From positions 1-64,000 of the forward strand of contig CAXXVO010000002.1 in NCBI GenBank assembly GCA_963422645.2: a stretch of 64,000 bases of DNA, given 5' to 3'. The stretch's first letter is position 1. Every line of letters starts with the position of its first letter. The stretch comes from Alphaproteobacteria bacterium. Lineage in GTDB: Bacteria > Pseudomonadota > Alphaproteobacteria > UBA828. Position numbers and translations under genes: made by a program. Under the pieces are notes generated by a model. It ran no database searches. It saw only the letters and a list, made by a program, of their open reading frames with translations, and was not told the origin of the DNA. Positions 41,237-57,477 of the stretch are shown in pieces.

Positions 41237-43750
41237 TTAGAGGTCCGGGAGGTAGTAGGCGACGAGCAATCTCGTGAGGATTTCGCCACGGAGCGCCAAA
41301 CGATCAACATCCTCTTTTGGCATGGCTGCGAAGTCGGTTGGGTAGTGCCGGACCTCGTCGCGTGTTGGGAGGTCCGCTGGAATCCAGGGCAAGGCATTGT
41401 CCTTCTGTCCGAGATAGGCCAACGCGAAGCCCGAGAGTTTTCCGTCGTCAGCAAAGTAGTGCAGGCGTTTTCGAGTAGCGTCCTGGACCTTGCGAAAGAC
41501 TGTGAGAAAGGACCGGTACATCCTAGTAGGCCAGCGGGTCGGGTAGCTGTCGGCGTCGAATAGGCCCGCGCCAGCGTCGCAACAAATGATGTACTCGGGG
41601 TCGAAAACATTCGTGCTGATAGAAGCTATCCGCCCAGGCTCCATCGGGTTAACGCCCAGATTCTCGAATACTCCACCATCGGTGAGCAGAACACGAGTCG
41701 GCGTACTGGTTTTCCCGTTCTTGACAAAGCGGTACTTGCGTTCAAGTGCAGGCAGAAAGACCGGATAGGCTGCCGAAGCGGCCACGGCATCGGCGACCAG
41801 AGCGTCTTCGGGGGCAATCGTTCCAAAACGCCAACAGCCGCTATGCCGACTTCCGAACCGGAATGCGGATCCGGTTCGCAGCTCGGTGGCATTGATAACC
41901 GTATCGAGCGATTCCCGGGAGACTTCGCGCACAATGGTATCGCCGAACATGGATTGAGCGATGACTTCCTTGAACGCCTCCGTGCGGCTGAACGTGCGCT
42001 CCACCGGCTGACTCACGCGATCAGGGTTGTTCGATGGGATCGCGACGCGAGCCAGGCGATGAAGTATGCGGGCGATGAAGCACAGACACGCGACAAAATG
42101 AACTCTGACAACCTTGCGGATGGAGCCCTGTAGAAACACCTGGCGAAAGATGTCGCGGTGAAGTCCTTTGTCCAGAAGCTGTAGTGCGCGCGCTTCAAAC
42201 TCCGGGAACGGATCGTCTGAATAGGCATACATTGCGGAGATCACAGAACCGCCAGACACACTCGAAATCACCTGGAGGCGATCAAGCAAATCCAGGTCGT
42301 GCAGAGCACGCAGACATCCCAGGTGAAACGCGATGGCGCGCGATCCCCCGCCGGAGAGCGCGAGCCCCACATTTCTCGGCTTCTGGAGGCGTGGCCCAAG
42401 CTGCGTCGTTGCTGCTGTGTTTCGTTCAATTCGAATGAAATTCTTGTCGGACAGTGTTGTCCTGAATGCATGCGCGCCAAGAATTGGATCGTCGGGATTC
42501 CCGGAGAGGATCAGGATCAAGCAGGTTCTTCGGGCGGAGACCGGGTCGGCTAGGAGCTGTGCGACGGCATCAATGTCGATATCGCTTGGGTGCGGCGAGG
42601 ACGAGGGGTGGGTATGCCAACTGCCGACGCAATCGACCGATCCGCGGAACCGGTCGCGCTTACTTTCGGCAGCCTCTATCATCCCTTTGACTCCGCAGGT
42701 GAAGTGCTCCTCGCTTGCGTCGCTGTCTGGCGGCGGTCCCTCCACCTCCGTGACCCAAAGCACGCCCGCGGCTTCGTTCAACTCACCAAATACCAGCCCG
42801 CCGGTCTCAATTCCTGGTCCCACCGTTCGCGCAGATCGTCTTGCCCATCCGCGCATTTCTCGCGCAGCAGTCGCAGATACCCGGACCGAATAGCCGCGCC
42901 CCTCGTCCCTGAGAGTATGTTCCGGGGGCCACGAAAACTCATGGACAGGTCCGGATTCTTCGCAAGTCCAGCCAAAGCCCGTGTGGCAGTCATCGGTCCC
43001 TTGGATCGCACGAGCGATAGAATTCAGCATGCGCGCTGACAGTCCTGCGAGATCGGCGTTGGAACCGATGAACGTCGGCTCCGAACAGCCAGGTTCTGGT
43101 TGAAATTCCTCGCCTGGCGCCGATCGCGGCCAGAAAGCCTGAAGCGGTCTCGCGAGCTGCGCACTTCGACACGCTTCGAGTTTGAGGCACCGAGTCAGGT
43201 CGAGCGTGCCGCCGCTATGGTTCCCTCGCGAAAGAGTAGCAATGCCGTTGGCGGCCTGACTGTCGATGGCGATGGATGCAATTGGAGGTCGCGTGTCCGG
43301 GGCGTCGCGTAGCACATGCTCCAGGGCCGTCCGAACCGCCATTGAGGCCGTGCAATCGAGCAGAAGGTCGACCATCGGAAGTGGATCGGCGCCTGTTACT
43401 CGTTGAATAAGGTCGCCGGTCGAAGCGACAGCTTCCAGATCGGGATCGATCCTTTTCAAGCGATCGGCCAGCGCGTGAGCCTTGAACCTTCCGATATCGG
43501 CGTCTTCAAAGCCTTGTCGTACTAGGAGACCGGGGGCGACCGTCTTGTTGTCTACAAGCTCTACCGTTCTGGCACCGGCCCGTACGACGCTTTCCGCCAC
43601 GTGGGTCCCTACAGCGCCGCATCCCCAAATCGCCACACGCTTACCGGAAAACCAAGCCATGGGGGATGCTTGATCCCGCCTCCTGGTGACCTCAGGACGC
43701 ATTTCCCTGACTCTGCACCAACCCACATCGGCCAAGACCGACCATTCCAC
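41237..43750 (-). CDS. ThiF/E1-like + JAB + patatin-like phospholipase fusion (probably the C-terminal part of an E2-E1-JAB-patatin protein)
   Basis: GCGAVG, 'LVRQ', 'LDCTA', 'EPGCSEPTF' (Cap2-type catalytic Cys); ETGG...WHTHP..PSDID; patatin LSGGGSRA, SVSGGS, DGG. Confidence 0.88.
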   Translation of the reverse strand: MEWSVLADVGWCRVREMRPEVTRRRDQASPMAWFSGKRVAIWGCGAVGTHVAESVVRAGARTVELVDNKTVAPGLLVRQGFEDADIGRFKAHALADRLKRIDPDLEAVASTGDLIQRVTGADPLPMVDLLLDCTASMAVRTALEHVLRDAPDTRPPIASIAIDSQAANGIATLSRGNHSGGTLDLTRCLKLEACRSAQLARPLQAFWPRSAPGEEFQPEPGCSEPTFIGSNADLAGLSARMLNSIARAIQGTDDCHTGFGWTCEESGPVHEFSWPPEHTLRDEGRGYSVRVSATAAREMRGWARRSARTVGPGIETGGLVFGELNEAAGVLWVTEVEGPPPDSDASEEHFTCGVKGMIEAAESKRDRFRGSVDCVGSWHTHPSSSPHPSDIDIDAVAQLLADPVSARRTCLILILSGNPDDPILGAHAFRTTLSDKNFIRIERNTAATTQLGPRLQKPRNVGLALSGGGSRAIAFHLGCLRALHDLDLLDRLQVISSVSGGSVISAMYAYSDDPFPEFEARALQLLDKGLHRDIFRQVFLQGSIRKVVRVHFVACLCFIARILHRLARVAIPSNNPDRVSQPVERTFSRTEAFKEVIAQSMFGDTIVREVSRESLDTVINATELRTGSAFRFGSRHSGCWRFGTIAPEDALVADAVAASAAYPVFLPALERKYRFVKNGKTSTPTRVLLTDGGVFENLGVNPMEPGRIASISTNVFDPEYIICCDAGAGLFDADSYPTRWPTRMYRSFLTVFRKVQDATRKRLHYFADDGKLSGFALAYLGQKDNALPWIPADLPTRDEVRHYPTDFAAMPKEDVDRLALRGEILTRLLVAYYLPDL

Positions 43751-43758
43751 GACCGCAA

Positions 43759-44655
43759 CTATCGCTGCACAGCCCGTTGTGCTGGATCATCGGCTGACGA
43801 CGAGACATTCAGCTCTCGCAGCTTGTCTGCGTCGGCAGTAGCGATTTCCCATACTGCGAGATGCTGAAGGGCTCGACCGCCCGGGTCTATTCGGCGCATC
43901 GGGGTACCGAGCACTACGGCCAGCGGGGTCACGGCGCCGCTGTTTCGCGCGTACAGCCCGAGTTGGCGGATGAACGGACCGTAGTCGAGACCGTGAGATT
44001 CCAGCTCTTTCAATAGGGAGTGGACAGTCTTTGGGTATTCGAAAGGCAGGTTCCTATGGAGCAAGATTGCGGGAGCGAAGTGGGCCGGCAGTTCATGACC
44101 ATGCTCCTGCCAGCCGACGATTTCGGTGCGATGGTGTCGTTCACGTAGTTCCGCCAACCCGAACCAAGGCGAGTCGTCAACCGGAGGAGTATCCGCCCTC
44201 GGCACAAATAAGCGGTCAACGATTGGATAGGCGACCGGCGGATGGAGTGGCGCGTCGTCGGGATCGAGGTTGTTGACTGCTGCGTCACGTATCCAGGAGT
44301 CTAACCGCTTGACAAAGCCGTACATCCCGTTTTCCGGGCGCCAGTCGGCGGAACTCCCGTAGAGGCAGAGTTGCCTCCGCCACTGGACGTGATTGAAGCC
44401 GGAGAAGCGAACATGCGGAGTCACGACCAGTGGATGCTCGAACGGGAAGGTAGGAGGTACGAGCACGCAGAAAGCCTCACGTGCTCGCACCGGTAGCCCA
44501 TCCTCGCCCCGCTCCAGGCCGTCGAATCGAATGCTTATCTCGAACAGGCGATAGGCGTCGACAAGCTGAGTGGCTTCGTAGAGCTGTACGGTGCCGTCCG
44601 AGGCATCCGCAATCTCCCTAAGCTGTTCCCAGGCGAGTTCGAAGGCATCGGCCAT
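43759..44655 (-). CDS. E2/UBC-like domain protein (N-terminal half of a Cap2-like fusion; likely frameshift at ~43770)
   Basis: 'VPPTFPFEHP...HVQWRRQLCLY....WRP....GFVKRLDSW' UBC-fold pattern with Cys. Confidence 0.75.
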   Translation of the reverse strand: MADAFELAWEQLREIADASDGTVQLYEATQLVDAYRLFEISIRFDGLERGEDGLPVRAREAFCVLVPPTFPFEHPLVVTPHVRFSGFNHVQWRRQLCLYGSSADWRPENGMYGFVKRLDSWIRDAAVNNLDPDDAPLHPPVAYPIVDRLFVPRADTPPVDDSPWFGLAELRERHHRTEIVGWQEHGHELPAHFAPAILLHRNLPFEYPKTVHSLLKELESHGLDYGPFIRQLGLYARNSGAVTPLAVVLGTPMRRIDPGGRALQHLAVWEIATADADKLRELNVSSSADDPAQRAVQR

Positions 44656-45779
44656 CAGGCCCGGCCGTACGTGTGAGCACTTTCGGGAGCTTCGTTTGAG
44701 CCCTTCGCTGCATCGGCGGCTTCCGAAGCGGTCATGGCGGCGGTCGCCACGCCGGCGAGCACGATCTTTCCATCCTTAAGTTCAGCCATGATCGGCTCGT
44801 CCTGATCCATTGTGCAAAGAAAGGACTCGGTGGTCGACTCGTACTGCGTCTTGGCCTTTGCATGGGGAGGGTTGTCACCGGCCTTGTTGGAGGACGGTAC
44901 CGTATTGGAGCTGGATATGACCCGATTGGGTTTCAAAGACGCCTTCTCCATTTCCTCAACGATGTGCTTCTTGAGCTTCTCCTCGTCGTCCCCTTCCTCC
45001 TTCCAGTACATCGCGGCCTTTGAGCAGTGGTGCGGTGCCAGCAGCACGTTCCATGCGAGATCGTCGTCTTCGTTGACGCCAAATATTCTCTTGATGATCG
45101 GGTAGGAAAGATCACCGAGGAGCAGCGCGCGCAGTATCTTGTCTCCGTCGTAAAGCGTGACCTGCATGCCGAGGCTCGTGTCGTTCCGCTCGCCGGCGTC
45201 ATCGTCCTTGAACGGGGCATGGACAAATGCCCGGAACTTGTCAGACACGTCCTTTTCGTCAATCGTGGTCACTTCGTTACCCGGTATCGTCAACCGATCT
45301 TCCGGAAAATCCTTGTAATCGTCCTCTTCCAGCAACTCCGAGTAGCCGAAAATACGCACGCGGTCGCCGGCGCCTGGATCGCCCTTGGCCTCGATCGTCT
45401 TCTTGACGCGCCGTTCCGCCTCCTTCTTGAAATCCTTCGCGTCGTCGCAGAGATCCTTATTATACTCGGCAAAGATTCTGGGCGTGAACCACAACTCGCC
45501 AATATCTACCTTGTCGAGGAGGTCCGAGAAACCCCGGCAATGGTCCTGATCAGGGTGAGTCAGAGCAAACACGGCCAGGTACGGTCGTCCATTGACCTTG
45601 GGCAACCGTTCTGAGAGCTCATCGACAACGGCCCAGCTGGCATCGTCGTCGTCGTCGGACTTTTGCAGATGATTGAGATCAACCTGCAGATACGTCTTCG
45701 AGTCGACAACAATGGATGTGCTGTCGCCATTTGCCACCGGCCAGAAGACCAGTCCGCGGTCAGGAAGTTCGAAGGCCAT
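44655..45779 (-). CDS. Metallo-beta-lactamase-fold hydrolase (ComEC/Rec2-like) with a C-terminal tail ending HTYGRA
   Basis: 'VANGDS', THPDQDH, 'NDTS', LLGD, APHHCS; low-complexity Ala-rich tail. Confidence 0.88.
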   Translation of the reverse strand: MAFELPDRGLVFWPVANGDSTSIVVDSKTYLQVDLNHLQKSDDDDDASWAVVDELSERLPKVNGRPYLAVFALTHPDQDHCRGFSDLLDKVDIGELWFTPRIFAEYNKDLCDDAKDFKKEAERRVKKTIEAKGDPGAGDRVRIFGYSELLEEDDYKDFPEDRLTIPGNEVTTIDEKDVSDKFRAFVHAPFKDDDAGERNDTSLGMQVTLYDGDKILRALLLGDLSYPIIKRIFGVNEDDDLAWNVLLAPHHCSKAAMYWKEEGDDEEKLKKHIVEEMEKASLKPNRVISSSNTVPSSNKAGDNPPHAKAKTQYESTTESFLCTMDQDEPIMAELKDGKIVLAGVATAAMTASEAADAAKGSNEAPESAHTYGRA

Positions 45780-45874: not shown

Positions 45875-47755
45875 TCATCGTACACACCGTGTGACAAACC
45901 CATTGCCGCCGCGTGCTGTAAGCAACGACACGCCATCTTCGATGTTTGTTTGAAAGACTTGTCGAGCTACTTTGCCGTACAGCTTGACTGCCTTTGCGTC
46001 TGGATGCCCGTATTGATTGTCGACCCCGGCGCTGATCAAGACCGTGTCCGGGGACACAAGTAGCGCCATTTTGGGATGAGCCGCATTCTTTGAGCCGTGA
46101 TGCGGGGCACTCAAGACGTCGGAAGAAAGACTATTTCCGAACAATCTGGTTAACCGCTTATGCACATGGCTCCGGTTCGATCAACATGCTGTAGGTAAGG
46201 GGTTTTGCATTGGTGGCGATGCGGAAGAGCGAGCGGAAAGCAGCGTGGCGGGTTTTGCGGCGGTTGAAGCGAAAGGCGAACTCATCGAGATAGGCCTGCA
46301 GATGCTTGCGGCGCAGCCCGTGGTAGACGCCTCGCGCCCATCCTTTGAGGTTGGAGAAGACTTGGTGGATCCACGGCAGGACGAGGTGAGCGGCGGTCTT
46401 CCCGACGACATGGACATTGTGGCGATCGGCGGGGACCGCAGCGTAGCCGGACCAGCCGTCGGTTTTCGCGATGGCGTCGGGATCGGCGGCGGTTTCGACG
46501 AAGTGTCCGAGGTCGGCGGCGCCGTAGGAGGAGATTTCGGCCAGCCGCAGGCGGCCCGGGATGGTTCCATCCCCCAGTTCGATGGCGCCGACGATGAGCA
46601 TCTTGCCGTCGTGGCTGCGTCCTTGCCCTCCGGTGGGAGGATCGTCTTTGGTCCGGAATGGAAGGCTGGCCTCGTCGATTTCCACCAGGCCCGACAACGG
46701 GTTGCGCTCGGGGTCGACCATGCTGGCGCGCAGCTTGTGGGCGAGCAGCCAAGCGCTGCGGTAAGAGCCGATACCGAGCTGTTTCTGGAGCTGCAGGGCA
46801 GAGATGCCGTTGGAGTGGGTCGCCATCAGGTAGGCGGCCCAGAACCAGACGGTGAGCGGCAGCTTGCTGGCGTGCAGGATCGTCCCGGCCGTCACCGAGG
46901 TCTGCCGGCGGCAGCCGGCGCACTCGAAGGTGTGTGCTTTTCTGCGCAGCGCCCATCCCTTTTCATGGCCGCACGCGGGACAGACGAAGCCGTCCGGCCA
47001 GCGCATTTCGATCAGCCAGGCGGCGCAGGCGTCATCGTCCGGGAACATGTGCTGGAAGGCGAGGAGGCTGTCGGCGACCTGTTTCATGTGGTGGCTCCGT
47101 CGGCAGGAACGTATAGGCAACATTCTACCCGTTCTCCCGCCCTAACCTCAACCTCAACATCTGGTGGCAAACTCTCGCGACCGGAGCCATGTGCATAAGC
47201 GGTTCTGGTTATTGTGTCCCAGCGGTCGTTTTCCGTATCTCCCGTTATCAGATAAGGAAACCCATTCCCGCCAATTCCCGACAACTTGAGGACTATGCTA
47301 CAGTTGTTGGAATTATCCATGTCTTCACTATGCGGAGAAAACAGCTCATAGGAAAAATACTTGGAAAGCCCATTCAGTTTTCGCGAATGGAGGTCCAACC
47401 GTACCGAGAGCTTCTTTAGGGGCTTTCCTGTATTCCTTCGCCGGCGCTCATGCTTGTTGATAACCTTGAACACGTCGGTGGCATTATCGGTATCCTTGTA
47501 ATACTTCGGATACATGATCCAATTGGGTTTGTACTCTCCCAGAATGTTGTCAACCCCATACGGGTCAGCATGGTCGTTATCGAACCCTGTCAATACGAGG
47601 CCCGCTAAGTCCTGATTGCGGAGAAACACCTGCAATTGCTTCTCGATTGCTTTAGCGTGTTCGTCGGGCCAGCGCGAATCGACGATCACGGCTTCTCCGC
47701 GGTGGCGGATGGCGATCAACTCACCCTGTCCTACGTATACCGTCAGCGTCTGCAT
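45875..47755 (-). pseudogene. MBL-fold (ComEC/Rec2-like) hydrolase interrupted by IS1595
   Basis: 'VGQG', TGFDNDH, NNCS, ITGD, APHHGS, YGHP; removing the IS and one TSD restores in-frame ...WDTITR-LFGN... Confidence 0.88.
46153..47203 (-). mobile_element. IS1595-family element (tnp ~46158-47087)
   Basis: TIR ACCGCTTATGCACATGGCTCCGG; 8-bp TSD TCTGGTTA; CPAC..CAGC, VEIDE, TDGW, 'YLDEFAFRFNRR'. Confidence 0.95.
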
Positions 47756-47757
47756 TG

Positions 47758-48696
47758 CTATTGCCCACTCCGTTCGCTGATGGCCCAATACAGCGATTGG
47801 TTCAATTCTCTCTCGAACGCACTCACCGCCTGTGCCGCAGACCCGAACTGCCGTCCGCTGAAGTCCTCGTAGACCCCTGCGCACACGCTTGGCAGCTTCT
47901 TGGCCAGAACTTGGTAATAGGAAGCCTCTCCGTCCTCCGATGTGTCTATTTCGGGGACCGTGACATCTATCGATGACCCGTCAACCAGTTCCAGCTCTCC
48001 CTTCCAATACAGAGTGCCGGCGCGTTTCGACCAGTACGGCTGAAGCGACGGGAAGAGGTCTGGAATGGTCGCACTATCCCTGGTCCGGACTTCCTTGCTG
48101 TGCCCCGCCTCTGTCTTGCTCAGCTCCGGCCTCGATCCAAGGGGCCAAACGGGTGCGTCTCTCGTAAGGGTGACTTTCGCGGGTTCGACCTCGTAAACGG
48201 CATCGTCACCCCGTAACAGGATGTAGTGCCTGACGCTGTAGCGTGACGCCGCCTCTCCACCAGCCAGCCGGGAAACGACGAGTAGTGCATAAAAGAAATC
48301 AAGGTTGTGCTTTTCGTGATTCACTATCCTTCTGTAGGTTGCAATGTCGCCGCCGCTGAGGTTTGGAAATCCATTCACATGATGTGTGTGCCAATTGCCA
48401 AGATGCTCAACTTCAGGGCGCGCGCTCTCGATCTGGCGAAATATCTCCGCTTGGTAGTCGCCGTCCTGGAAGAAACTTGTGGTGGACCTCCGCGCATTCG
48501 GTCCAGCCTCGATGACACCGGTAACCGTGACCTCCAATGAGCCATCGGCGCAGCGCCGAAACCGTCCTACGATCCGCCCACCCGTCTCGTCATGGTCATA
48601 ACGATCGCAGTCATCGAAGATCGACTCCAGTACCAGCGAAGGGATCGATAGCGTAGCGTTGGCATCCTTTAGGTCGCTATTCATTGGAACCTCCAC
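47758..48696 (-). CDS. JAB/MPN (JAMM) metallo-isopeptidase with a C-terminal extra domain
   Basis: ETGG...GNWHTHH....LSGGD JAMM motif; ~110-aa C-terminal extension. Confidence 0.88.
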   Translation of the reverse strand: MEVPMNSDLKDANATLSIPSLVLESIFDDCDRYDHDETGGRIVGRFRRCADGSLEVTVTGVIEAGPNARRSTTSFFQDGDYQAEIFRQIESARPEVEHLGNWHTHHVNGFPNLSGGDIATYRRIVNHEKHNLDFFYALLVVSRLAGGEAASRYSVRHYILLRGDDAVYEVEPAKVTLTRDAPVWPLGSRPELSKTEAGHSKEVRTRDSATIPDLFPSLQPYWSKRAGTLYWKGELELVDGSSIDVTVPEIDTSEDGEASYYQVLAKKLPSVCAGVYEDFSGRQFGSAAQAVSAFERELNQSLYWAISERSGQ

Positions 48697-49519
48697 AAAC
48701 TAGGCAACCCTCCTGCCGATGCAGGGTGATTCTTTGCAGCTCGAAGCTCTTGCTGAATGGATGTATCGGTCGATTTCCCCAAACCACGTAATTTTCCGGG
48801 ATAGCGGGAAGAAACGCTGGCCGTTGTGGGGCCAGCCGAGCCAAAGCGTCCATCACATAGCGCACGTGAAAAAGCGTGATGAACCCGATGTCTACCGCGA
48901 GGCCTGGGGAATCCTTTATCTCTTGAGGATCCAATCCGTACATTTGCTCCCGGTCTTCTTCGGAAGCGAGATCAATCTCCCTGACACCGTCTCGGAATTT
49001 AGTTCGTTCGAGAACACCCTCCAGACAAGCAAGACACCCACTCTCGCCCGGACGATAACCAAACACCTCTCCGCCAATCCCGCGGGTGAACACTTTTCCG
49101 ACAACGAATGGTGTTTCATTTCGAACACACAATTCGTTCATTTGAAATCGTGTCGGATCATTGTCGGTGGCAAGTACGACGATGTGGGAGCGTTGGACCT
49201 CACTCTCCAAGCCATGCCACTGCATCAGATCTTCTTCGACTTTCAGTACAGAAATATCTGGGTTTCGATCCTTGAGTACGTCTTCCAGTGCATCAACCTT
49301 CTTGCGACCGACAAATCGAAGTCCGCAAACATGCCGAATCACATTTTCGGATTTCATCACGTCTTTATCGATCAACGTGAAGTGTTTGACGCCTGACATG
49401 ACAAGTTGGAGCGCAACCTGGCCCCCGCCAGACCCGCAACCTGCGATGAGTACACGGGATTCGGCGAAGGCCTCGACGTCAAACAGACCTTCAATTCTCG
49501 CAAATAGGTTTTCGTGCAA
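48677..49519 (-). CDS. ThiF/MoeB/E1-like adenylyltransferase
   Basis: GCGSGG, 'IDKD...ENVIRH', 'KKVDAL', 'ATDN', Zn motifs CLAC and CLVC; TTG start directly after the upstream stop. Confidence 0.9.
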   Translation of the reverse strand: MHENLFARIEGLFDVEAFAESRVLIAGCGSGGGQVALQLVMSGVKHFTLIDKDVMKSENVIRHVCGLRFVGRKKVDALEDVLKDRNPDISVLKVEEDLMQWHGLESEVQRSHIVVLATDNDPTRFQMNELCVRNETPFVVGKVFTRGIGGEVFGYRPGESGCLACLEGVLERTKFRDGVREIDLASEEDREQMYGLDPQEIKDSPGLAVDIGFITLFHVRYVMDALARLAPQRPAFLPAIPENYVVWGNRPIHPFSKSFELQRITLHRQEGCLVCGGSNE

Positions 49520-49520
49520 T

Positions 49521-50048
49521 TCAGGTGCCCTCCCGCTCGGGCCAATTGCCGGTAGTGGACCACAATGCATAGCCGCTTAGCCATCGCCGACACAGTTTCA
49601 AGGTATGAACCACATCGTGTCGCCCGGGATTCCAGGTTTCCATGGCGCCAAAAATGCAAAGAGAGCCGTCAAGCCAGAGATGAGGAGATGATGGGTCTAT
49701 CGGATCGGCTGTAACCACCGGGGACTTGTTCGGATACCCGTGGGGTAGCGTGATGCATAAACGGATATCCTTCTCTTGGCCTGGTTCAGTAAGAATTAAT
49801 TGTATTTCCCTATTCTCCGTTATAGATACGCGAAATGGTTCACTTTCGGCAGCAAGACCATCAAGTTCCTGCGATATCCTGTTCGGGGAGATATCAGGCA
49901 GGAAGACGGAAATGGGCACCAGACATGCCTTTTGTTGTCCGCTTCTCTCTACAACATAGGCACGACCGCGTACCGCGACGTCATCCAGAATTTCTCCGGG
50001 TCGGCTGCGGAGATCCATCATGGATAGAGGTTGGAAGTCGATGTGCAT
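49521..50048 (-). CDS. Phd/YefM-like DNA-binding domain fused to an E2/UBC-like domain
   Basis: N-terminal 'SMMDLRSRPGEILDDV...YVVERSGQQKACLVPI'; C-terminal 'ITLPHGYPNKSP...PHLWLDGSLCIF....WNP'. Confidence 0.75.
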   Translation of the reverse strand: MHIDFQPLSMMDLRSRPGEILDDVAVRGRAYVVERSGQQKACLVPISVFLPDISPNRISQELDGLAAESEPFRVSITENREIQLILTEPGQEKDIRLCITLPHGYPNKSPVVTADPIDPSSPHLWLDGSLCIFGAMETWNPGRHDVVHTLKLCRRWLSGYALWSTTGNWPEREGT

Positions 50049-50054
50049 GGCAGA

Positions 50055-50429
50055 TCAATGGGCAATGCCCGCACCGGGCCAACGACGCTGAACGCAATAG
50101 ACTTCGTATTTGGCTAGCCATTTGGCCGCTCGCGCAATGACGAAGCGGAGGTCATGACGTCCAGGGTTCCAAAAATTCGGATGCAAGTAGCAAAGTTGAT
50201 TATCGGTGTACCGATGAGGGGAGGGTTGCAGCGCAGGTGTCCGGACGAAAACCTGGGGCATCGCATTCGGGTACGACTGCGGGAACGTTACTGCCAGTGT
50301 GTAGTAGCGGAGCGACGTCTGTAGCGCGACCAAAGCCATCAATCCGCCTGCGTTGGTGGGGTGCGCCTCGACGTAGTCGAAGTGCTGCTGCGCGGTCGCA
50401 ATATCCCGTTGGATTCTTGTCAGATTCAC
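50055..50429 (-). CDS. E2/UBC-like conjugating enzyme
   Basis: 'VTFPQSYPNAMPQV...PHRYTDNQLCYL....WNP...VIARAAKWL'; GTG start overlaps the stop of the 64-aa ORF. Confidence 0.8.
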   Translation of the reverse strand: MNLTRIQRDIATAQQHFDYVEAHPTNAGGLMALVALQTSLRYYTLAVTFPQSYPNAMPQVFVRTPALQPSPHRYTDNQLCYLHPNFWNPGRHDLRFVIARAAKWLAKYEVYCVQRRWPGAGIAH

Positions 50430-50620
50430 CGCGAGTCTCCACGGGCGCTGTATTCGCCTCCTAGGTCTTCCCTCATCGTGATCGGCTTGCGATAGCCGCT
50501 TTCCGCAGCAGCGCTTCCGCCGAGCTCCCGCACCTCGCCGTTGGGCAGGATTTCGATCGGGGAGTCCTCCTCCTCGTCCAAGATCGCCTCGAGTTCGTGG
50601 ATTGTCGGTTTTCTCGCCAT
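50426..50620 (-). CDS. 64-aa acidic peptide with an LGG motif; first gene of the operon
   Basis: AGGTG RBS, ATG, GTGA coupling to E2; MARKPTIHELEAILDEEEDSPIEILPNGEV...KPITMREDLGGEYSARGDSR. Confidence 0.7.
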   Translation of the reverse strand: MARKPTIHELEAILDEEEDSPIEILPNGEVRELGGSAAAESGYRKPITMREDLGGEYSARGDSR

Positions 50621-50644
50621 TTCGCGTCACCTATGAGGATCGTG

Positions 50645-50682
50645 CGGTTATGATAGTTGTACAGTTCATAACCGGCTGTCAA
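50645..50682 (-). promoter_or_regulatory. Putative promoter/operator of the ubiquitin-like operon
   Basis: TTGACA (-35, 50677-50682); perfect IR CGGTTATGA-N12-TCATAACCG (50645-50674) enclosing TGTACA; -10 box is not canonical. Confidence 0.6.
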
Positions 50683-50859
50683 GGGAAGAAGCCGGCTCTA
50701 GCGGATGGTGTCCTGGGCATCGCGCTACGCGGCACCAAGCCGTGGACATGACGGCGAGCCATGGTCAGGCGTCGTCGAGGGCAAGGCGTTGGAGGAGGGA
50801 GGTGCAGCCCTCCCGCACGATGGCGGGGGCCCGCGCCCGTTTCTGAGGATGGAGGAAGA

Positions 50860-51000
50860 ATCGAGGCGTCGCGGCGAGGCCGGCAAAGGTCTACAGGTAC
50901 TCAACCGGATGATCGCCGGACCGATACCGGGAGTAGCGAAACCATGCCTTCGGCAGGTGCGGAGCTTCGAACGGCCCGTCGCCGCGGACATAGACCCGGG
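50860..51000 (-). mobile_element. Degenerate IS66 tnpC remnant
   Basis: 'VYVRGDGPF...FRYSRYRSGDHPVEYL' matches the tnpC segment at ~36930-37040. Confidence 0.65.
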
Positions 51001-51130
51001 ACCGTACGGTGCTCCCGATCGGGCTGGACCGCTTCGGAATTCCGGATCGTGATTGCGAAGGCGACCGGCATGAAGTACCTCGGTGGCCCTTCGCCGGCCG
51101 GCGGGCCACGAGAGCTTGGTGTGCTCGTCC

Positions 51131-51204
51131 GCAATGTTCGCTGCGCAGCGAATATTGCCAGGTTCTCGAATATCCGCTAGAAGGCATATATTTGCTGCGC
51201 AGCA
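51131..51204. promoter_or_regulatory. Two palindromes with a GCTGCGCAGC core upstream of the AbiEi-like gene
   Basis: GCAATGTTCGCTGCGCAGCGAATATTGC (28 bp, one mismatched pair) and TGCTGCGCAGCA (51193-51204). Confidence 0.65.
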
Positions 51205-51219
51205 GAATAGGCTTGAACG

Positions 51220-52317
51220 GTGATGCTTGACTCGGACGTAATGGAAGGACAGCTGGTTGACGGGTTCCTGGAAGCCCTGCGGGAGCTCCCCGATGCGCAG
51301 GCGGAGGTCAGTGAGGCCGAACAGCCGGGCGGCCGCGATCGAGGACATGACGTCCAGGTTGACCTCCGGGTGGGTGGGAAGGCGGCCACCCTGCTGATTG
51401 AGATGAAGAAGGACGTATATCCCCGTGACGTGCGGCAGGTACTTTGGCAGCTCCGCGGCTCCGCACGGAGAAGGCCGCACCCGGAAGAAAAACGGGAAGC
51501 GGTGTTCTTCCTGATCGCCCGATCGATTTCACCTGGAGCCAAGGAGCTGTTGAGGAACGAGCGGGTCGGCTACTACGACAGCGGCGGCAGCCTGTTTCTG
51601 CCCGCCGGCAACATCTACGTGTATGTGGACAAGCCGCCCCCGAAAAGCCTGTCGCGGTCCATCCGTTCCGTGTTTTCGGGCCGTCGTGCGCAAGTGCTGC
51701 ACGCGGTCCTGCTGCGACATCGCGAGTGGTTCGGGGTGAATGACATCGCCAACCAAGCCCGGGTATCGCCCGCGACCGCCTCGCAGGTTCTGATGGAAAT
51801 GGAGAAGTTCGAATGGGTGGTGTCGCGTGGACAGGGGCCAGGAAAAGAACGCCATCTGCAAGAGCCAGGCGCCTTGCTGGATGCATGGGTGAACCAGCAG
51901 GCGGTGATGCGGCCGCTGTCCATGCGGCGTTACTTCGTGCCGTCGGCGGGCGCGGAAGGGCTGGTGGAGAAGTTCGCCGAGGTCTGCGCAGAGAGCAAGG
52001 CCGAATACGCGATCACTCACGAGGCGGCAGGGCAACGGTACGCGCCATTTCTGTCAACTGTCTCCCAGGTGCGTTGCCGGCTGCTGGAGGGCCCGGCAGC
52101 AGATCGGGGTCTTAGCGCAATTGATGCTCGATTCGTGGACCAAGGCGCGAACCTTGCGGTCATCGAGGTCAAGTCGCCGAGCGAGTTGCTGTTTCGCGAA
52201 TTCGTGAACGGGATCTGGCTGGCAAGTGCTGTGCAGGTCTACCTCGACCTGATGCGCAGCGAGGGCCGCGCTAGGGAAATGGCGGAGCACCTGCGCCACG
52301 AAAGGATCGGCTTCTGA
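51220..52317 (+). CDS. AbiEi-like (type IV TA antitoxin) transcriptional regulator
   Basis: Central wHTH 'VNDIANQARVSPATASQVL', 'PGALLDAW', C-terminal 'VQVYLDL...GRAREMAEHL'. Confidence 0.72.
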   Translation: MMLDSDVMEGQLVDGFLEALRELPDAQAEVSEAEQPGGRDRGHDVQVDLRVGGKAATLLIEMKKDVYPRDVRQVLWQLRGSARRRPHPEEKREAVFFLIARSISPGAKELLRNERVGYYDSGGSLFLPAGNIYVYVDKPPPKSLSRSIRSVFSGRRAQVLHAVLLRHREWFGVNDIANQARVSPATASQVLMEMEKFEWVVSRGQGPGKERHLQEPGALLDAWVNQQAVMRPLSMRRYFVPSAGAEGLVEKFAEVCAESKAEYAITHEAAGQRYAPFLSTVSQVRCRLLEGPAADRGLSAIDARFVDQGANLAVIEVKSPSELLFREFVNGIWLASAVQVYLDLMRSEGRAREMAEHLRHERIGF

Positions 52318-53231
52318 TGGTGAAGCCCGCGACGTTCGACGGCTACAGCGATCGGTACACGGTCGAATGCGAGCGGGTCCTCGTAACTCTGCTGCGCGGA
52401 CTGGGCCCGTGGAAGGAGTCCGTGTTTCTGGTGGGCGGACTGACTCCCAGATACTTGGTGGCGGCTCGGCCGCCGGAAGTGCCGGCGCATGCCGGCACGC
52501 TCGACGTGGACATCGTCATCGATCTGCAGATCCTGGCTGACACTGCGGGCTATCGCACGCTTGAGGAGAACCTGCGAGCGATGAGGTTCGAGCGGTCGAT
52601 GAACGAGAGAGGCCAGAGGCTTTCATGGCGGTGGCAGACTCGCACCGAAAGCGGTGCGCTGATGGTGGTCGAGCTGCTCGCCGACGCGCCGGACATCGCT
52701 GGTGGCAGGGTCGAACCGCTGCCTACGGAAGGGAACATTTCCGCGCTCAACATCCCGCATTCGTCCATTGTCTTCGAAATGCACCAGGTCGCGGAGATTC
52801 GGGCAGAGCTCCTGGGCGGTGGGGGAAACGCCGTCGAAGTGGTGAGGCACGCCGATTTGGTGAGCTTCACTTGCTTGAAGGCTTTCGCCTTCGACCAGCG
52901 CTTCGAGCGGAAGGACGCCCATGACCTGATGTATTGCATTGAACACGCGGAGCGAGGTCTCGACGGAGCCGCGTACATGTTCCGCGAGGCCTTGGGGGGC
53001 AAGCACGGCGCAGTGATTTGGGACTGTTTGTCAATTCTTCGCAATCGTTTCGCAGGGGACGGCGAAGTCGAGGGGTATCGGAAAGACGGTCCGGTAGCGG
53101 TGGCCCGCTTCGAACTGGGTGAGGGTGACGATGCTGGTCAGCGCGAAGCTCGGTTGCTGAGGCAGCGGGAGGTCAACAGCGTGATGGAGCAACTTCTGGG
53201 TCGGATCGCTTCGGAGGCGGCATGGCGGTAA
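52317..53231 (+). CDS. AbiEii-like nucleotidyltransferase (type IV TA toxin-like)
   Basis: 'LVGGL', 'GTLDVD', 'LKAFAF..R...KDAHDL'; coupled to the upstream gene. Confidence 0.72.
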   Translation: MVKPATFDGYSDRYTVECERVLVTLLRGLGPWKESVFLVGGLTPRYLVAARPPEVPAHAGTLDVDIVIDLQILADTAGYRTLEENLRAMRFERSMNERGQRLSWRWQTRTESGALMVVELLADAPDIAGGRVEPLPTEGNISALNIPHSSIVFEMHQVAEIRAELLGGGGNAVEVVRHADLVSFTCLKAFAFDQRFERKDAHDLMYCIEHAERGLDGAAYMFREALGGKHGAVIWDCLSILRNRFAGDGEVEGYRKDGPVAVARFELGEGDDAGQREARLLRQREVNSVMEQLLGRIASEAAWR

Positions 53232-56400: not shown

Positions 56401-57477
56401 CCGCACGAGGACCCGCCTGACGAGCTGACAGAATCTCACAAAATGTAGTGCCATGTTGGAATCGGCAGAGAAAAATATTGCGCCATATCAAAGCGATAAA
56501 CGACAGCAGAACACAAAAAGTGCCAACCTGGGATGTGATCTGCACGCCGCTGCTGGCGGCGTACCGGGTCAGCGGCAAGCGCGGCGCCCTGCTCTCGGGT
56601 GTCTCCGGCATCGTCGTGCACGATCACTGGAAGCCGTACTTCGCGATGGAAGGGGTGGAGCACGGCCTGTGCAACGCCCATCACCTGCGGGAGTTGCAGG
56701 CGCTGGTGGACATCGAAGGGGAGGCTTGGGCCCGGCGGATGCAGCAGCTCCTGCGCCGAGCCAATCGCGCCGCCCGCATCGCGCTGGACAAGGATATCGC
56801 CGTTCCGGCGAGGCTTGTGGCGCTGATCGAGCGCCGATACGACGAGATCATCGCCGATGCGCTGGCCTTTCACGAGAGCCAACCACCGTTCTCGCCTGGC
56901 AAGAGGAAGAAGCGCCGGAAGCGAAGGATCGGTCACAATCCGGCCTTGAGGCTGCGCGACCACAAATGCGCGGTGCTCCGGTTCCTGATCGACCTCGAGG
57001 TCGGGTTCACGAACAACGAGGCCGAGCGCGACCTTCGGATGATGAAGCTGCGCCAGAAGATCTCCGGGGGCTTCCGGTCCGCGCAGGGGGCCGAGAACTT
57101 CGCCATCCTGCGCAGCGTCATCACCACCGCCAGAAAGCAGGGCTGGAATATCATCGAAGCCCTGACCAGCCCATCGGATCGGCTCATCGCCACCGTCAAG
57201 TGCGCGTAAGCTCACCTGGCACGGGTTCTCCAACAGCGGAGCCATTCTCATAAACGATCATGGTCGACGCCGTGCTGGACCACCCCATAGAATGAAAATC
57301 GGTGCCCGTCGCGCGGGCGGACTTCGGGCCACATCGGGGTAGCTTACCGGTCGCAGTCCGCAAGAGGGGCATCGTGAGCTGTGAAACCCGGCGACCCCAG
57401 AGGAGCACACGGGCGTCGCGTGGGTAGCGTTGTGCCGAATCCCAGAGAATTTTCACAGCAAGAACCTGGGCAGTTAC
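53427..57477 (+). mobile_element. IS66-family element, copy 2 (near-identical to 11788-13675), interrupted by IS1634
   Basis: Same TIRs; 8-bp TSD GTGAATTC; tnp split into 53541-54373 and 56533-57209. Confidence 0.95.
54374..56532 (+). mobile_element. IS1634-family element (tnp 54599-56428)
   Basis: TIR CCCA(A/G)GTTGGCACTTTT; ATGT duplicated; 'MFIR...RQRTLLNLG', YDLT, MDAG, 'IEATFRSLKS'. Confidence 0.9.

What the first reader, a model, noticed from the sequence alone, without database searches (positions are those of the whole stretch)
50426..50620. 64-aa acidic peptide ending LGG-EYSARGDSR: a possible non-ubiquitin-fold (Pup-like) modifier
Seen: first gene of the operon, coupled to E2 by GTGA, very acidic, with no recognisable beta-grasp pattern and 'KPITMREDLGG' followed by a 9-residue tail. 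Established: Ubls end in GG after JAB/DUB trimming; actinobacterial Pup is an acidic disordered tag ending GGE/GGQ but uses a different ligase. Inference: JAB trims after LGG, E1 adenylates the Gly, and E2 transfers the peptide, giving a largely disordered tag handled by ubiquitin-type enzymes.
Basis: inference. Interest (0 to 1): 0.85.

Follow-up and report, generated by a model that had tools for sequence, protein, structure and literature searches.

The report
Small non-ubiquitin tag heading E1/E2/JAB operon
A real, very strongly conserved 57-64 residue acidic protein with an invariant LGGEY motif leads a bacterial ubiquitin-type enzyme operon and most likely serves as its attachable tag without having the ubiquitin fold, and relatives of it also sit in the head-assembly gene blocks of phages.

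Summary
It is a real gene. A profile search found 593 clusters of relatives. In 45 genome loci from many phyla it heads the same operon: tag, E2a, Phd/YefM-E2b, ThiF-type E1, JAB, ComEC-like MBL. It is the best-conserved protein of that operon. L-G-G-E-Y is invariant at protein level while its codons vary. AlphaFold2 gives one helix, one hairpin and a low-confidence C-terminal half. It gives no beta-grasp.

Two further facts fit endoproteolytic maturation. The tag occurs naturally fused to E2a (9 clusters, one with two tandem copies). It also occurs at the C-terminus of unrelated enzymes.

No biochemistry was possible. E1 docking got only "weak support".

The enzymes are closest to type II CBASS Cap2/Cap3 and the 6A-MBL defence system, where non-ubiquitin substrates are already known. 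This is therefore a new variant. Unexpectedly, 16 viral contigs carry tag homologs without the enzymes.

In this window the MBL gene is broken by an IS1595 element.

The parts
50426..50620 (-). Tag gene (64 aa precursor, stop included)
   Evidence: conserved family; synonymous codon variation
50525..50608 (-). Residues 5-32: conserved N-terminal element (predicted helix 7-14/16 and beta-hairpin 22-24/30-32; I24 L25 P26 N27 G28 E29 nearly invariant)
   Evidence: AF2 (block pLDDT 76-83); column counts
50450..50464 (-). Codons for L53-G54-G55-E56-Y57, the invariant motif; candidate JAB cut and E1 activation site
50429..50449 (-). Codons for the variable tail S58-R64; also holds the GGAG ribosome-binding site 7 nt before the GTG of E2a
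   Evidence: Sequence; tail variability
50645..50674 (.). Perfect 9-bp inverted repeat (12-nt spacer) just downstream of a TTGACA, 25-54 nt upstream of the tag ATG: candidate promoter/operator
   Evidence: related TGTRCAA or CGCACGA motifs enriched about 20-fold upstream of the tag in other loci
50055..50429 (-). E2a, 124 aa, GTG start; Cys80 conserved 54/54, His83 53/54
49521..50048 (-). E2b, 175 aa: Phd/YefM-like N-terminal domain + second E2/RWD-like domain, Cys131 conserved 47/50
   Evidence: annotated 'Phd/YefM family antitoxin' in a RefSeq plasmid
48677..49570 (-). ThiF-type E1, 297 aa; GCGSGG loop, two CxxC pairs and Cys82/Cys148 invariant
   Evidence: Pfam ThiF 1.3e-30; PADLOC CBASS E1-E2 3.2e-32; PDB ThiF/MoeB/MccB/Cap2
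47758..48696 (-). JAB/JAMM peptidase, 312 aa, with a C-terminal extra region; E37, H103, H105, S114, D117 conserved 51/51
47205..47755 (-). N-terminal part of the ComEC/Rec2-like MBL gene (MBL1), cut by the IS
46151..47204 (-). IS1595-family insertion (transposase ORF 47123..46158) absent from the otherwise collinear locus L001
45875..46150 (-). C-terminal part of MBL1

Best explanation
ORF64 is the precursor of a dedicated, free-standing conjugation tag that does not have the ubiquitin fold. It belongs to a mobile E1/E2/JAB system related to type II CBASS (Cap2/Cap3) and to the 6A-MBL anti-phage system.

Proposed working (all steps inferred):
1. The N-terminal helix-hairpin element (residues ~5-32) is the docking surface for the enzymes.
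2. The flexible C-terminal half delivers the K-P-L/I-T-M-R-E-D/N-L-G-G stretch into active sites.
3. The JAB peptidase removes what follows Gly55. That is Glu-Tyr plus a short tail here, or the whole E2a domain or a second tag copy in fused relatives.
4. The ThiF-type E1 adenylates the new C-terminal Gly.
5. The tag passes as a thioester to Cys80 of E2a, perhaps helped or regulated by the Phd-E2b paralog, and from there to a lysine of an unknown target. The target could be a phage protein or the system's own ComEC-like MBL nuclease or another effector.
6. The JAB can also reverse the conjugation.

Shown here: the gene is real; it is the best-conserved gene of a fixed operon; its motif is under protein-level selection; the fold prediction is not a beta-grasp; the enzymes' catalytic residues are intact; fusions exist that need proteolytic release.

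Inferred: cleavage, the cut site, adenylation, transfer, the target and the anti-phage role.

In this particular genome the system is probably disabled, because MBL1 is split by an IS.
For: Synteny:
- Tag followed by E2a in 54 of 55 genome loci.
- E1 hit in 53, JAB in 51 and MBL in 47 of 55; several of the misses are contig ends.
- 45 of 55 loci have tag, E2a, Phd-E2b, E1 and JAB at >=70% coverage.

The tag is the most conserved component, as ubiquitin is. Median identity to the window's proteins over those 45 loci: tag 68%, E1 62%, MBL 55%, E2a 54%, E2b 51%, JAB 45%.

Motif:
- L53 128/129, G54 127/129, G55 127/129, E56 128/129, Y57 129/129.
- Synonymous codon turnover at these positions.

Fold: two AF2 runs (36 and 129 rows) give helix 7-14/16, hairpin 22-24/30-32 and the rest coil at pLDDT 53-67. 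Foldseek against the PDB gives no hit at E<=0.001, and no ubiquitin-like chain among the 24 weak rows.

Enzymes competent: E2a Cys 54/54, JAB E/H/H/S/D 51/51, E1 Zn cysteines 49-50/50.

Release step needed:
- 9 clusters are single ORFs reading tag-LGGEY-(1-7 aa)-E2a.
- P0270 has two tag copies before E2a.
- The same module ends or sits inside unrelated proteins: PF15891-, PF18143- and PF00929-bearing proteins, and P0290 = Phd domain + tag.

Enzyme kinship: PADLOC CBASS E1-E2 3.2e-32, JAB 1.5e-14, E2 4.8e-11.

Precedent: Cap2 adenylates the disordered, conserved C-terminus of cGAS, which is not ubiquitin-like (passages read).

E1 + tag complex prediction: ipSAE 0.56 in 3 runs against a best control of 0.00. 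The tool's verdict is 'weak support'. The mark was reached by 58 of 80 solved complexes and 2 of 110 mismatched pairs, but scores of 0.60 or under were reached by only 7 of those 80 solved complexes and by both mismatched pairs that passed. The runs agree in >=71% of contacts, and the partner's pLDDT is >=62.

The MBL1 C-termini are not conserved, so the nuclease itself is not the obvious conjugated substrate here.
Against: - No experiment: cleavage, adenylation, thioester and conjugates are all unobserved.
- Glu56-Tyr57 are as invariant as GG and residue 58 is small (A 54, G 36, S 12, C 4, T 3, other 6, of 115 sequences that have one). 14 of 129 and 7 of 55 homologs end at Tyr57, and 0 end at Gly55. 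A plain 'trim the junk after GG' model does not predict this.
- 16 viral contigs carry homologs, 14 of them with LGGEY. None has E2/E1/JAB/MBL within 6 kb, and no ThiF was found in 5 whole viral records, 3 of which are >=94% complete. The motif is therefore kept where the enzymes are absent.
- The AF2 models are only moderately confident (mean pLDDT 67.8 and 71.9, pTM 0.27-0.29), so absence of a fold is not proven.
- The complex score is in the band that the tool calls more often wrong than right without a strong prior.
- No invariant cysteine is obvious in the E1 crossover region. The E1 thioester step may be missing or may use Cys82 or Cys148.
Confidence: 0.55

Rival explanations
1. It is still a conjugated tag, but the mature, activated end is Tyr57 and not Gly55. 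The JAB (or another peptidase) cuts Tyr57|small residue. Homologs that end at ...LGGEY need no processing. The ThiF-type E1 adenylates a C-terminal tyrosine, and the GG only gives flexibility.
For: Y57 is the single invariant column (129/129). Residue 58 is A/G/S/C/T in 109 of 115 sequences. 14 of 129 and 7 of 55 natural proteins end at Y57, and none ends at G55. The closest solved relatives of the E1 by sequence include MccB (6e-13) and PaaA (3e-06). From recall, those enzymes act on non-glycine peptide C-termini.
Against: From established knowledge (recalled, not tested here), JAMM peptidases and E1 adenylation pockets act on Gly-Gly-type tails. The G436E change at the cGAS C-terminal glycine abolishes phage protection (passage read). 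L-x-G-G with an invariant Leu resembles the ubiquitin-type recognition tail. A recalled precedent exists for a JAB that removes a dipeptide after GG (QbsD on QbsE).
Confidence: 0.17
2. The peptide is not conjugated at all. It acts by binding, in one of three ways. It could be a pseudo-substrate or regulator that keeps E1/E2/JAB (or the Phd-E2b repressor) in check until infection. It could be a mimic of a phage head-module protein that senses or blocks phage assembly. For the phage copies, it could be a decoy that jams the host system.
For: Phage homologs keep the whole module, including LGGEY, without any E1. In 5 of 12 viral loci examined the gene lies in the head/neck block: after the portal and before scaffold and major head protein in L064, L059, L069 and L065, and between major head and neck proteins in L063. 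A Phd/YefM domain is fused to E2b in the operon and to the tag itself in P0290, which hints at a regulatory circuit. The operator-like repeats lie directly upstream of the tag.
Against: A pure binder would not need an invariant GG in a flexible tail next to catalytically intact E1, E2 and JAB genes. It also would not explain the recurrent in-frame fusions to E2a, nor the module's position at the C-terminus of unrelated enzymes, which is the pattern of conjugation handles in CBASS/Pycsar/MBL pathways (passages of PMC11601596).
Confidence: 0.2
3. It is a RiPP-like precursor peptide whose C-terminus is chemically modified by the ThiF-type enzyme (as MccA is by MccB), to give a small-molecule or peptide product rather than a protein tag.
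For: MccB and PaaA are among the E1's solved relatives. The substrate is a short peptide.
Against: Two E2-fold proteins with conserved cysteines and a JAB are not part of known MccB/PaaA-type clusters (recalled). PADLOC places all three enzymes with CBASS Cap2/Cap3 models. The neighbourhoods hold no export or immunity genes but do hold defence-type effectors: MBL, patatin and a membrane protein. The peptide is conserved along its whole length, unlike leader/core peptides.
Confidence: 0.04

Closest known systems
Type II CBASS Cap2 (E2-E1) / Cap3 (JAB) acting on the C-terminus of the CD-NTase (cGASylation)
   Same: The E1, E2 and JAB here score best against CBASS models. In both systems the substrate is not a beta-grasp protein. 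Its flexible, conserved, glycine-containing C-terminal stretch is what the E1 takes (passages of bioRxiv 10.1101/2022.03.31.486616). A JAB is encoded alongside.
   Different: Here the substrate is a free-standing ~57-residue peptide with no enzymatic domain. E2 and E1 are separate genes. There is a second E2 paralog with a Phd/YefM domain. There is no cyclase. The glycines are never at the natural end but are always followed by Glu-Tyr.
6A-MBL / 'MBL pathway' (Iyer et al. 2006 operon type 6a; reported as anti-phage by van den Berg et al. 2024)
   Same: E2 + E1 + JAB next to a specialised metallo-beta-lactamase-fold protein, sporadic and mobile (PMC1779556, section 14 and table rows read). PMC11601596 groups Type II CBASS/Pycsar/MBL as pathways that conjugate their own signalling enzyme (passages). 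A canonical-looking relative lies immediately downstream in this window (41237-45779).
   Different: Type 6a is described as a two-gene unit: a triple-module E2-E1-JAB protein plus the MBL, with no separate small protein. Here the enzymes are split, there are two E2s, and a dedicated tag gene comes first. The van den Berg paper is not in the library. I saw only its mention in a review (PMC13276650) and in a methods passage.
Bub pathway BubAB (Ubl-E2 fusion cleaved by a JAB domain) and Bil pathway (BilA Ubl pre-protein)
   Same: Natural modifier-E2 fusions that must be cut to free the modifier's C-terminus (abstract, outline and passages of PMC11601596). The tag-E2a fusions P0286-P0292, P0153, P0282 and P0270 are the same arrangement.
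   Different: BubA and BilA are beta-grasp Ubls, and Bub works through serine oxyesters. Here the fold is not a beta-grasp, and the E2a cysteine is invariant.
Pup (prokaryotic ubiquitin-like protein) and its ligase PafA
   Same: Small, acidic, largely disordered, with a GG near the C-terminus followed by Glu (recalled properties of Pup).
   Different: There is no sequence relation (no Pfam hit). The motif never ends at GGE/GGQ (0 of 129). The genome holds no Pup ligase (control genome positive). The linked enzymes are E1/E2/JAB, not a glutamine-synthetase-type ligase.
QbsE/QbsD (sulfur carrier ending GG-Cys-Phe, trimmed by a JAB) - recalled, not checked here
   Same: A JAB removes a C-terminal dipeptide to expose GG before a ThiF-type enzyme acts.
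   Different: QbsE is a ThiS-like beta-grasp sulfur carrier in a siderophore pathway. There are no E2s.

Membership tests
Ubiquitin-like beta-grasp modifiers (Ub, ThiS/MoaD, SAMP, BilA, BubA) | Beta-grasp fold | tested here: not met
   AF2 with 36 and 129 rows gives one helix, one hairpin and coil. Foldseek against the PDB gives no hit at E<=0.001 and no Ubl among 24 weak rows. Caveat: mean pLDDT is only 68-72.
Ubiquitin-like beta-grasp modifiers (Ub, ThiS/MoaD, SAMP, BilA, BubA) | Sequence membership in a known Ubl family | tested here: not met
   No Pfam hit at E<=1. No PDB sequence hit with the profile at E<=10. No usable ESM Atlas hit.
Ubiquitin-like beta-grasp modifiers (Ub, ThiS/MoaD, SAMP, BilA, BubA) | Conserved C-terminal Gly(-Gly), at the end or exposed by a peptidase | tested here: inconclusive
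   GG is 127/129 conserved but never terminal. It is always followed by an invariant Glu-Tyr.
Ubiquitin-like beta-grasp modifiers (Ub, ThiS/MoaD, SAMP, BilA, BubA) | Genetic linkage to E1 (and E2, JAB) | tested here: met
   45 of 55 loci have the full set.
Ubiquitin-like beta-grasp modifiers (Ub, ThiS/MoaD, SAMP, BilA, BubA) | Covalent attachment to targets through the C-terminus | not testable with these tools
   Needs biochemistry.
Pup / UBact | Ends in GGQ or GGE, ligated by PafA-type ligase | tested here: not met
   0 of 129 end in GGE/GGQ. There is no Pup_ligase (PF03136) in the 99.6%-complete genome, while the control genome Corynebacterium glutamicum is positive. No Pup Pfam hit.
Type II CBASS / Pycsar / MBL (Cap2-Cap3-type) pathways | E1, E2 and JAB homologous to Cap2/Cap3 | tested here: met
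   PADLOC: E1-E2 3.2e-32, E2 4.8e-11, JAB 1.5e-14. Cap2 is among the PDB hits of the E1 at 3e-05.
Type II CBASS / Pycsar / MBL (Cap2-Cap3-type) pathways | E2 and E1 fused in one protein | tested here: not met
   Separate genes in the window and in the 45 complete loci.
Type II CBASS / Pycsar / MBL (Cap2-Cap3-type) pathways | The conjugated substrate is the pathway's own enzyme (cyclase or MBL) through its C-terminus | tested here: not met
   A separate peptide carries the conserved GG motif. MBL1 C-termini are not conserved in the 44 locus homologs listed. By contrast, MBL2 of the neighbouring system ends in a conserved HTYG+2-3 aa.
Type II CBASS / Pycsar / MBL (Cap2-Cap3-type) pathways | Anti-phage activity | not testable with these tools
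   Only context: an accessory island, found in 0 of 60 relatives; IS elements and an AbiE-like pair nearby; swappable patatin, membrane-protein and MBL neighbours.
MccA/MccB-type RiPP precursor | Short precursor + ThiF-type enzyme with peptide clamp, export/immunity genes, no E2/JAB | tested here: not met
   Two E2s and a JAB are present. No transporter is conserved in the flanks. The only link is E1 similarity to MccB.

The most novel reading that the evidence does not exclude
The tag family is shared between a bacterial E1/E2/JAB defence operon and the head-morphogenesis blocks of phages. In some phages its gene overlaps the stop of the portal gene. The boldest reading that is not excluded has two forms. 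In the first, the bacterial system covalently attaches a mimic of a portal-associated phage assembly protein, a 'Trojan-horse' tag, to phage or host targets, either to poison capsid assembly or to aim the ComEC-like nuclease. In the second, the phage copies are decoys that jam the host E1/JAB. Either way it would be the first free-standing, non-beta-grasp, largely disordered modifier used by ubiquitin-type E1/E2 enzymes, with a built-in Glu-Tyr cap.
Probability: 0.2. Interest if true: 0.9.

Novelty: new variant of a known kind. Interest (0 to 1): 0.72.

Why it matters
Bacterial ubiquitin-type pathways (CBASS type II, Bil, Bub, 6A-MBL) are a young field. In every described case the transferred moiety is either a beta-grasp Ubl or the tail of a large enzyme. 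A widespread family (593 clusters) of ~57-residue tags with no beta-grasp, more conserved than their own E1, would define the minimal requirements for recognition by an E1/E2/JAB set. Those requirements would be a 30-residue docking element plus a flexible LGG-containing tail.

The family offers several things:
- A compact, genetically simple system for studying activation and transfer.
- A possible portable conjugation handle. Nature already fuses it to E2 and to unrelated enzymes.
- Through its phage homologs in head-assembly modules, a directly testable link between a defence system's modifier and phage morphogenesis or counter-defence.

The invariant Glu-Tyr 'cap' is an unexplained feature that a single mass-spectrometry experiment could resolve.

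Tried and rejected
**Considered and rejected**
- Chance ORF or nucleotide-level element. Rejected by synonymous codon turnover at fixed residues and by conservation across phyla.
- The 191-aa ORF 50630..50055, which overlaps the tag in another frame. It is only the E2a frame read upstream of its real GTG; 53 locus homologs start at the equivalent position.
- MBL1 as the conjugated substrate (as proposed for MBL pathways). Its C-termini are not conserved.
- Pup relationship. Rejected.
- The in-frame stops flagged (E1 of L013 and L053; JAB of 7 loci; MBL of L034). They lie at the gene ends and are artefacts of my extending tblastn hits past true starts or stops. They are not broken genes.

**Led nowhere**
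- Promoter/terminator consensus scan of 50300-51300: 0 sites.
- Profile against PDB sequences: 0 hits.
- ESM Atlas: no usable hit.
- Foldseek against the PDB: nothing at E<=0.001.
- PHROGs for 9 tags: nothing at E<0.01.
- Cultured-phage collection with a viral tag as query: no match.

**Literature**
- Searches for the motif LGGEY (7 unrelated papers), for YefM+JAB+ThiF (no paper holds YefM together with the others), for Cap2+Cap3+lactamase and for metallo-beta-lactamase+JAB+E1-like (2 papers) found no description of this peptide or of this operon type.
- The van den Berg 2024 paper and Burroughs 2011 (PMC5938088) are not held.
- Supplements are closed, so a mention there cannot be excluded.

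**RNA libraries**
- Contigs from metatranscriptome runs X1/X2 (identical figures, probably one data set) and X3 cover 50218-50552 and 50374-50581 at about 98% identity.
- They bridge the tag/E2a junction. Their changes are one synonymous change at L53, two in the tail (S58T, R60C) and two synonymous changes in E2a.
- These are contigs in RNA libraries. They are not proof of transcription and say nothing about levels or ends. Parts of the stretch without cover are not evidence of anything.
- A fourth run (X5, 'RNA' only by guess) gave a 171-letter contig identical to the window at 49942-50112, across the Phd-E2b start and the E2a end; it adds nothing on transcription.
Full report
**1. The observation**

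The ORF is exactly as described. It lies at 50620..50426 on the minus strand, starts with ATG and encodes 64 aa. The sequence ends ...KPITMREDLGG-EYSARGDSR. Its TGA overlaps the GTG of the next gene, giving GTGA. It is acidic: 15 D+E against 8 K+R, pI 4.54. No Pfam, PADLOC or PHROG family matches it.

The genes that follow on the same strand are:
- E2a, a 124-aa E2-fold protein.
- E2b, a 175-aa protein with a Phd/YefM-like N-terminal domain and a second E2/RWD-like domain.
- A 297-aa ThiF-type E1 (Pfam 1.3e-30).
- A 312-aa JAB/JAMM peptidase.
- A metallo-beta-lactamase-fold gene.

PADLOC places the three enzymes with the CBASS Cap2/Cap3 models: E1-E2 3.2e-32, E2 4.8e-11, JAB 1.5e-14.

**2. It is a real gene under strong selection**

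- A word-index search found 409 proteins of 35-112 aa. The best 120 are 72-100% identical to the query.
- A profile search of 1.84 billion cluster representatives found 593 clusters at E<=0.001 and 247 at E<=1e-10.
- A scan of one genome per species gave 55 loci. They come from Alpha- and Gammaproteobacteria, Acidobacteriota, Binatia, Gemmatimonadota, Planctomycetota, Verrucomicrobiota, Myxococcota, Nitrospirota, Elusimicrobiota, Armatimonadota and others, plus one Methanosarcinales MAG.
- At the motif codons the residues are fixed while synonymous codons turn over. L53 uses six codons and G54 and G55 use four each, in 55 sequences.
- The gene occurs once in its own genome. It was found in 0 of 60 related genomes searched, 20 of them in the same genus. 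It therefore belongs to an accessory, horizontally moving island.

**3. The operon**

tblastn with the window's proteins gave these counts over the 55 loci:
- E2a directly after the tag in 54.
- E1 in 53.
- JAB in 51.
- MBL in 47.

Several of the misses are contig ends. L047 and L055 lack the enzymes. A separate Phd-E2b is missing in L004, L016, L041 and L042.

Forty-five loci have tag, E2a, Phd-E2b, E1 and JAB at >=70% coverage. Across these, median identity to the window's proteins is tag 68%, E1 62%, MBL 55%, E2a 54%, E2b 51% and JAB 45%. The tag is thus the most conserved protein of its operon.

Catalytic residues are intact throughout:
- E2a Cys80 54/54 and His83 53/54.
- E2b Cys131 47/50.
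- JAB Glu37, His103, His105, Ser114 and Asp117 each 51/51.
- E1 CxxC pairs 49-50/50, with Cys82 and Cys148 50/50.

The MBL is related to the C-terminal nuclease-type domain of ComEC/Rec2 (2.4e-12 to 3.6e-08 against six solved chains).

Genes next to the operon vary: a patatin-like phospholipase in 18 loci, a membrane protein in 10, and a second MBL in 9. This is the swappable-effector pattern of defence systems.

A RefSeq Mesorhizobium plasmid annotates the set as hypothetical protein (the tag) / ubiquitin-conjugating enzyme E2 / Phd/YefM family antitoxin / ThiF family adenylyltransferase / two hypotheticals / patatin.

**4. The motif**

Genome loci:
- 53 of 55 read LGGEY. L047 reads LGGEH, and L055 is a divergent 168-aa protein without the motif.
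- 7 end exactly at ...LGGEY.
- None ends at ...LGG.

Deep alignment of 129 sequences, made of 107 cluster representatives at <=50% mutual identity, 6 viral and 15 genome-locus sequences, and the window:
- Y57 is the only invariant column (129/129).
- E56 128, L53 128, G54 127, G55 127.
- Residue 58 is A 54, G 36, S 12, C 4, T 3, other 6, and absent in 14.
- Tails after Y57 run from 0 to 28 residues.

In the window the tail also carries the ribosome-binding GGAG of E2a.

So the tail from residue 59 on looks unconstrained, but Glu-Tyr-(small) is not. Either it is the prime-side recognition element, a 'cap' that the JAB removes after Gly55, or Tyr57 is the mature end.

From recall, JAMM peptidases and E1 pockets prefer Gly-Gly tails, and a JAB that removes a dipeptide after GG is known (QbsD/QbsE). 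From the passages read, changing the C-terminal glycine of cGAS to glutamate abolishes CBASS function. I therefore favour Gly55, at roughly three to one.

**5. The fold**

AlphaFold2 with 36 rows gave mean pLDDT 67.8. With 129 rows it gave 71.9. Both predict a helix (7-14/16), a hairpin (22-24 and 30-32) with block pLDDT 76-83, and then coil at 53-67, with pTM 0.27-0.29.

Foldseek against the PDB found nothing at E<=0.001, and no ubiquitin-like chain among the 24 weak rows. The profile found no PDB sequence at E<=10.

With about 30 ordered residues there is no room for a beta-grasp. The confidence is only moderate, so folding upon binding is likely and a compact fold cannot be strictly excluded.

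**6. Fusions**

Among longer proteins, 91 had E<=0.001 of the 8000 candidates scored. I read 20 of them and 17 from the representative search.
- Nine clusters are single ORFs of tag-LGGEY-(1-7 residues)-E2a: P0286, P0287, P0288, P0289, P0291, P0292, P0153, P0282 and P0270 (alignment).
- P0270 carries two tag copies in tandem before E2a, like a polyubiquitin precursor.
- P0290 is a Phd/YefM domain (Pfam 2.7e-08) followed by the tag.
- The module also ends or sits inside proteins with precomputed Pfam domains PF15891, PF18143, PF00929, PF14354 (Lar-like) and PF00684, and inside zinc-ribbon-rich proteins.

Fusions to E2 are the arrangement of BubAB, which a JAB domain cuts to free the Ubl (PMC11601596; abstract, outline and passages). 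A C-terminal handle on enzymes is the arrangement of the CBASS/Pycsar/MBL pathways (same paper). Both fit a tag that has to be released by endoproteolysis and then activated at its C-terminus.

**7. Docking to the E1**

The tool's verdict is 'weak support':
- The mark was reached by 58 of 80 solved complexes and 2 of 110 mismatched pairs.
- Scores of 0.60 or under were reached by only 7 of those 80 solved complexes and by both mismatched pairs that passed.
- The runs agree in >=71% of contacts, and the partner's pLDDT is >=62.
- No contacts were given, so it does not say which residue reaches the adenylation site.

**8. Phage relatives**

A scan of IMG/VR gave 16 viral loci with homologs 43-58% identical to the window's tag. 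Fourteen have LGGEY. None has E2a, E2b, E1, JAB or MBL within about 6 kb.

In five whole viral records, three of them 94-99% complete, no ThiF domain was found, while the control genomes were positive. A JAB-like match below the family cut-off occurs in one of the five.

In 5 of 12 viral loci examined the gene lies in the virion-morphogenesis block:
- L064: portal (5e-97), tag, a 125-aa ORF, scaffold (2e-41), major head protein (3e-56).
- L059: collinear with L064 by BLAST. There the tag is the N-terminus of a 356-aa ORF.
- L069: a 736-aa ORF, tag, weak scaffold and head hits.
- L065: portal (1.6e-32), an 83-aa ORF, tag.
- L063: major head protein (5e-70), a 278-aa ORF, tag, a 173-aa ORF, neck protein (6e-37).

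In L064 and L059 the tag's start overlaps the portal gene's stop. No cultured phage in the annotated collection has a match.

Why phages keep the full module without the enzymes is unexplained. It could be a decoy, a trigger, or an original assembly function that the bacterial tag mimics. This is the main evidence for the non-conjugation rival and for the novel reading.

**9. Comparison with what is known**

Iyer et al. 2006 (section 14 and table rows read) list five E1/E2/JAB operon types. Type 6a is a triple-module E2-E1-JAB protein plus an MBL. None has a non-beta-grasp small protein or a Phd-E2.

[quoted passage not shown] It also names '6A-MBL' as an anti-phage system (a review passage; a methods passage). 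The primary paper is not held.

My literature searches found no description of this peptide. Supplements are closed, and two relevant papers could not be read.

I file it as a new variant of the Cap2/Cap3-type conjugation systems. It is not a member of the Ubl or Pup families.

**10. State of the system in this genome**

Against the collinear locus L001 (88-89% DNA identity), window 46151-47204 is an insertion that carries an IS1595-family transposase. It splits MBL1. The tag operon here is therefore probably non-functional as a system, although the tag, E2a, E2b, E1 and JAB genes are intact.

**11. Verdict**

The most likely function is a free-standing non-ubiquitin-fold conjugation tag (0.55). 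A further 0.17 goes to the same function with Tyr57 as the active end, about 0.2 to a non-covalent regulatory, mimic or decoy role, and 0.04 to a RiPP-like fate.

Noticed in passing
window 46151-47204 (transposase ORF 47123..46158, minus strand): An IS1595-family element (Pfam DDE_Tnp_IS1595 5.7e-26 plus its zinc ribbon) is inserted in the ComEC-like MBL gene of the tag operon. The collinear locus L001 lacks it, and the two alignment blocks overlap by 5 bases of L001, which is consistent with a short target duplication.
   Followed up: partly
window 41237-45779, minus strand: A second ubiquitin-type system lies directly downstream. It consists of MBL2 (374 aa, 45779..44655), a Prok-E2_A protein (298 aa, 44655..43759, Pfam 1.2e-18) and an 837-aa ThiF-JAB-patatin fusion (43750..41237). 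It has no tag gene. MBL2 ends in a conserved ...HTYG + 2-3 residues in the window and in L001, L003 and L023, like a CBASS-type conjugation tail. The pair of systems is syntenic in L001, L003 and L023.
   Followed up: partly
window 50645-50674 and the 110 nt upstream of the tag in L001-L054: A perfect 9-bp inverted repeat lies next to a TTGACA upstream of the tag. Across loci, TGTRCAA (13 of 55) or repeated CGCACGA (20 of 55) motifs are about 20-fold enriched upstream of the tag relative to the operon's coding DNA. They are possible operators for the Phd/YefM-like domain of E2b.
   Followed up: partly
L056-L071 (IMG/VR viral contigs), e.g. L064 6001-6171, L059 5995-7065: Tag homologs occur in phage head/neck gene blocks without E1/E2/JAB. 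In L059 the tag is fused to a ~300-aa C-terminal part that begins with a hydrophobic segment.
   Followed up: partly
window 51220-53231, plus strand: Two overlapping genes are divergent from the tag operon. One is a 365-aa protein with weak HTH and AbiEi_2 hits. The other is a 304-aa protein without a clear family. They may be an AbiE-like pair. They are not conserved next to the tag in other loci.
   Followed up: no
window 53541-57209, plus strand: An IS66-family transposase appears split. The N-terminal part (53541-54446) matches model positions 3-94 and the C-terminal part (56448-57209) matches positions 120-283. A DDE_Tnp_1 transposase gene (54587-56428) lies between them, i.e. a nested IS insertion.
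   Followed up: no
P0290 (145 aa, from a metagenome contig): A Phd/YefM domain is fused directly to the tag, whereas in the operon that domain is fused to E2b. This domain shuffle links the tag to the putative DNA-binding module.
   Followed up: no
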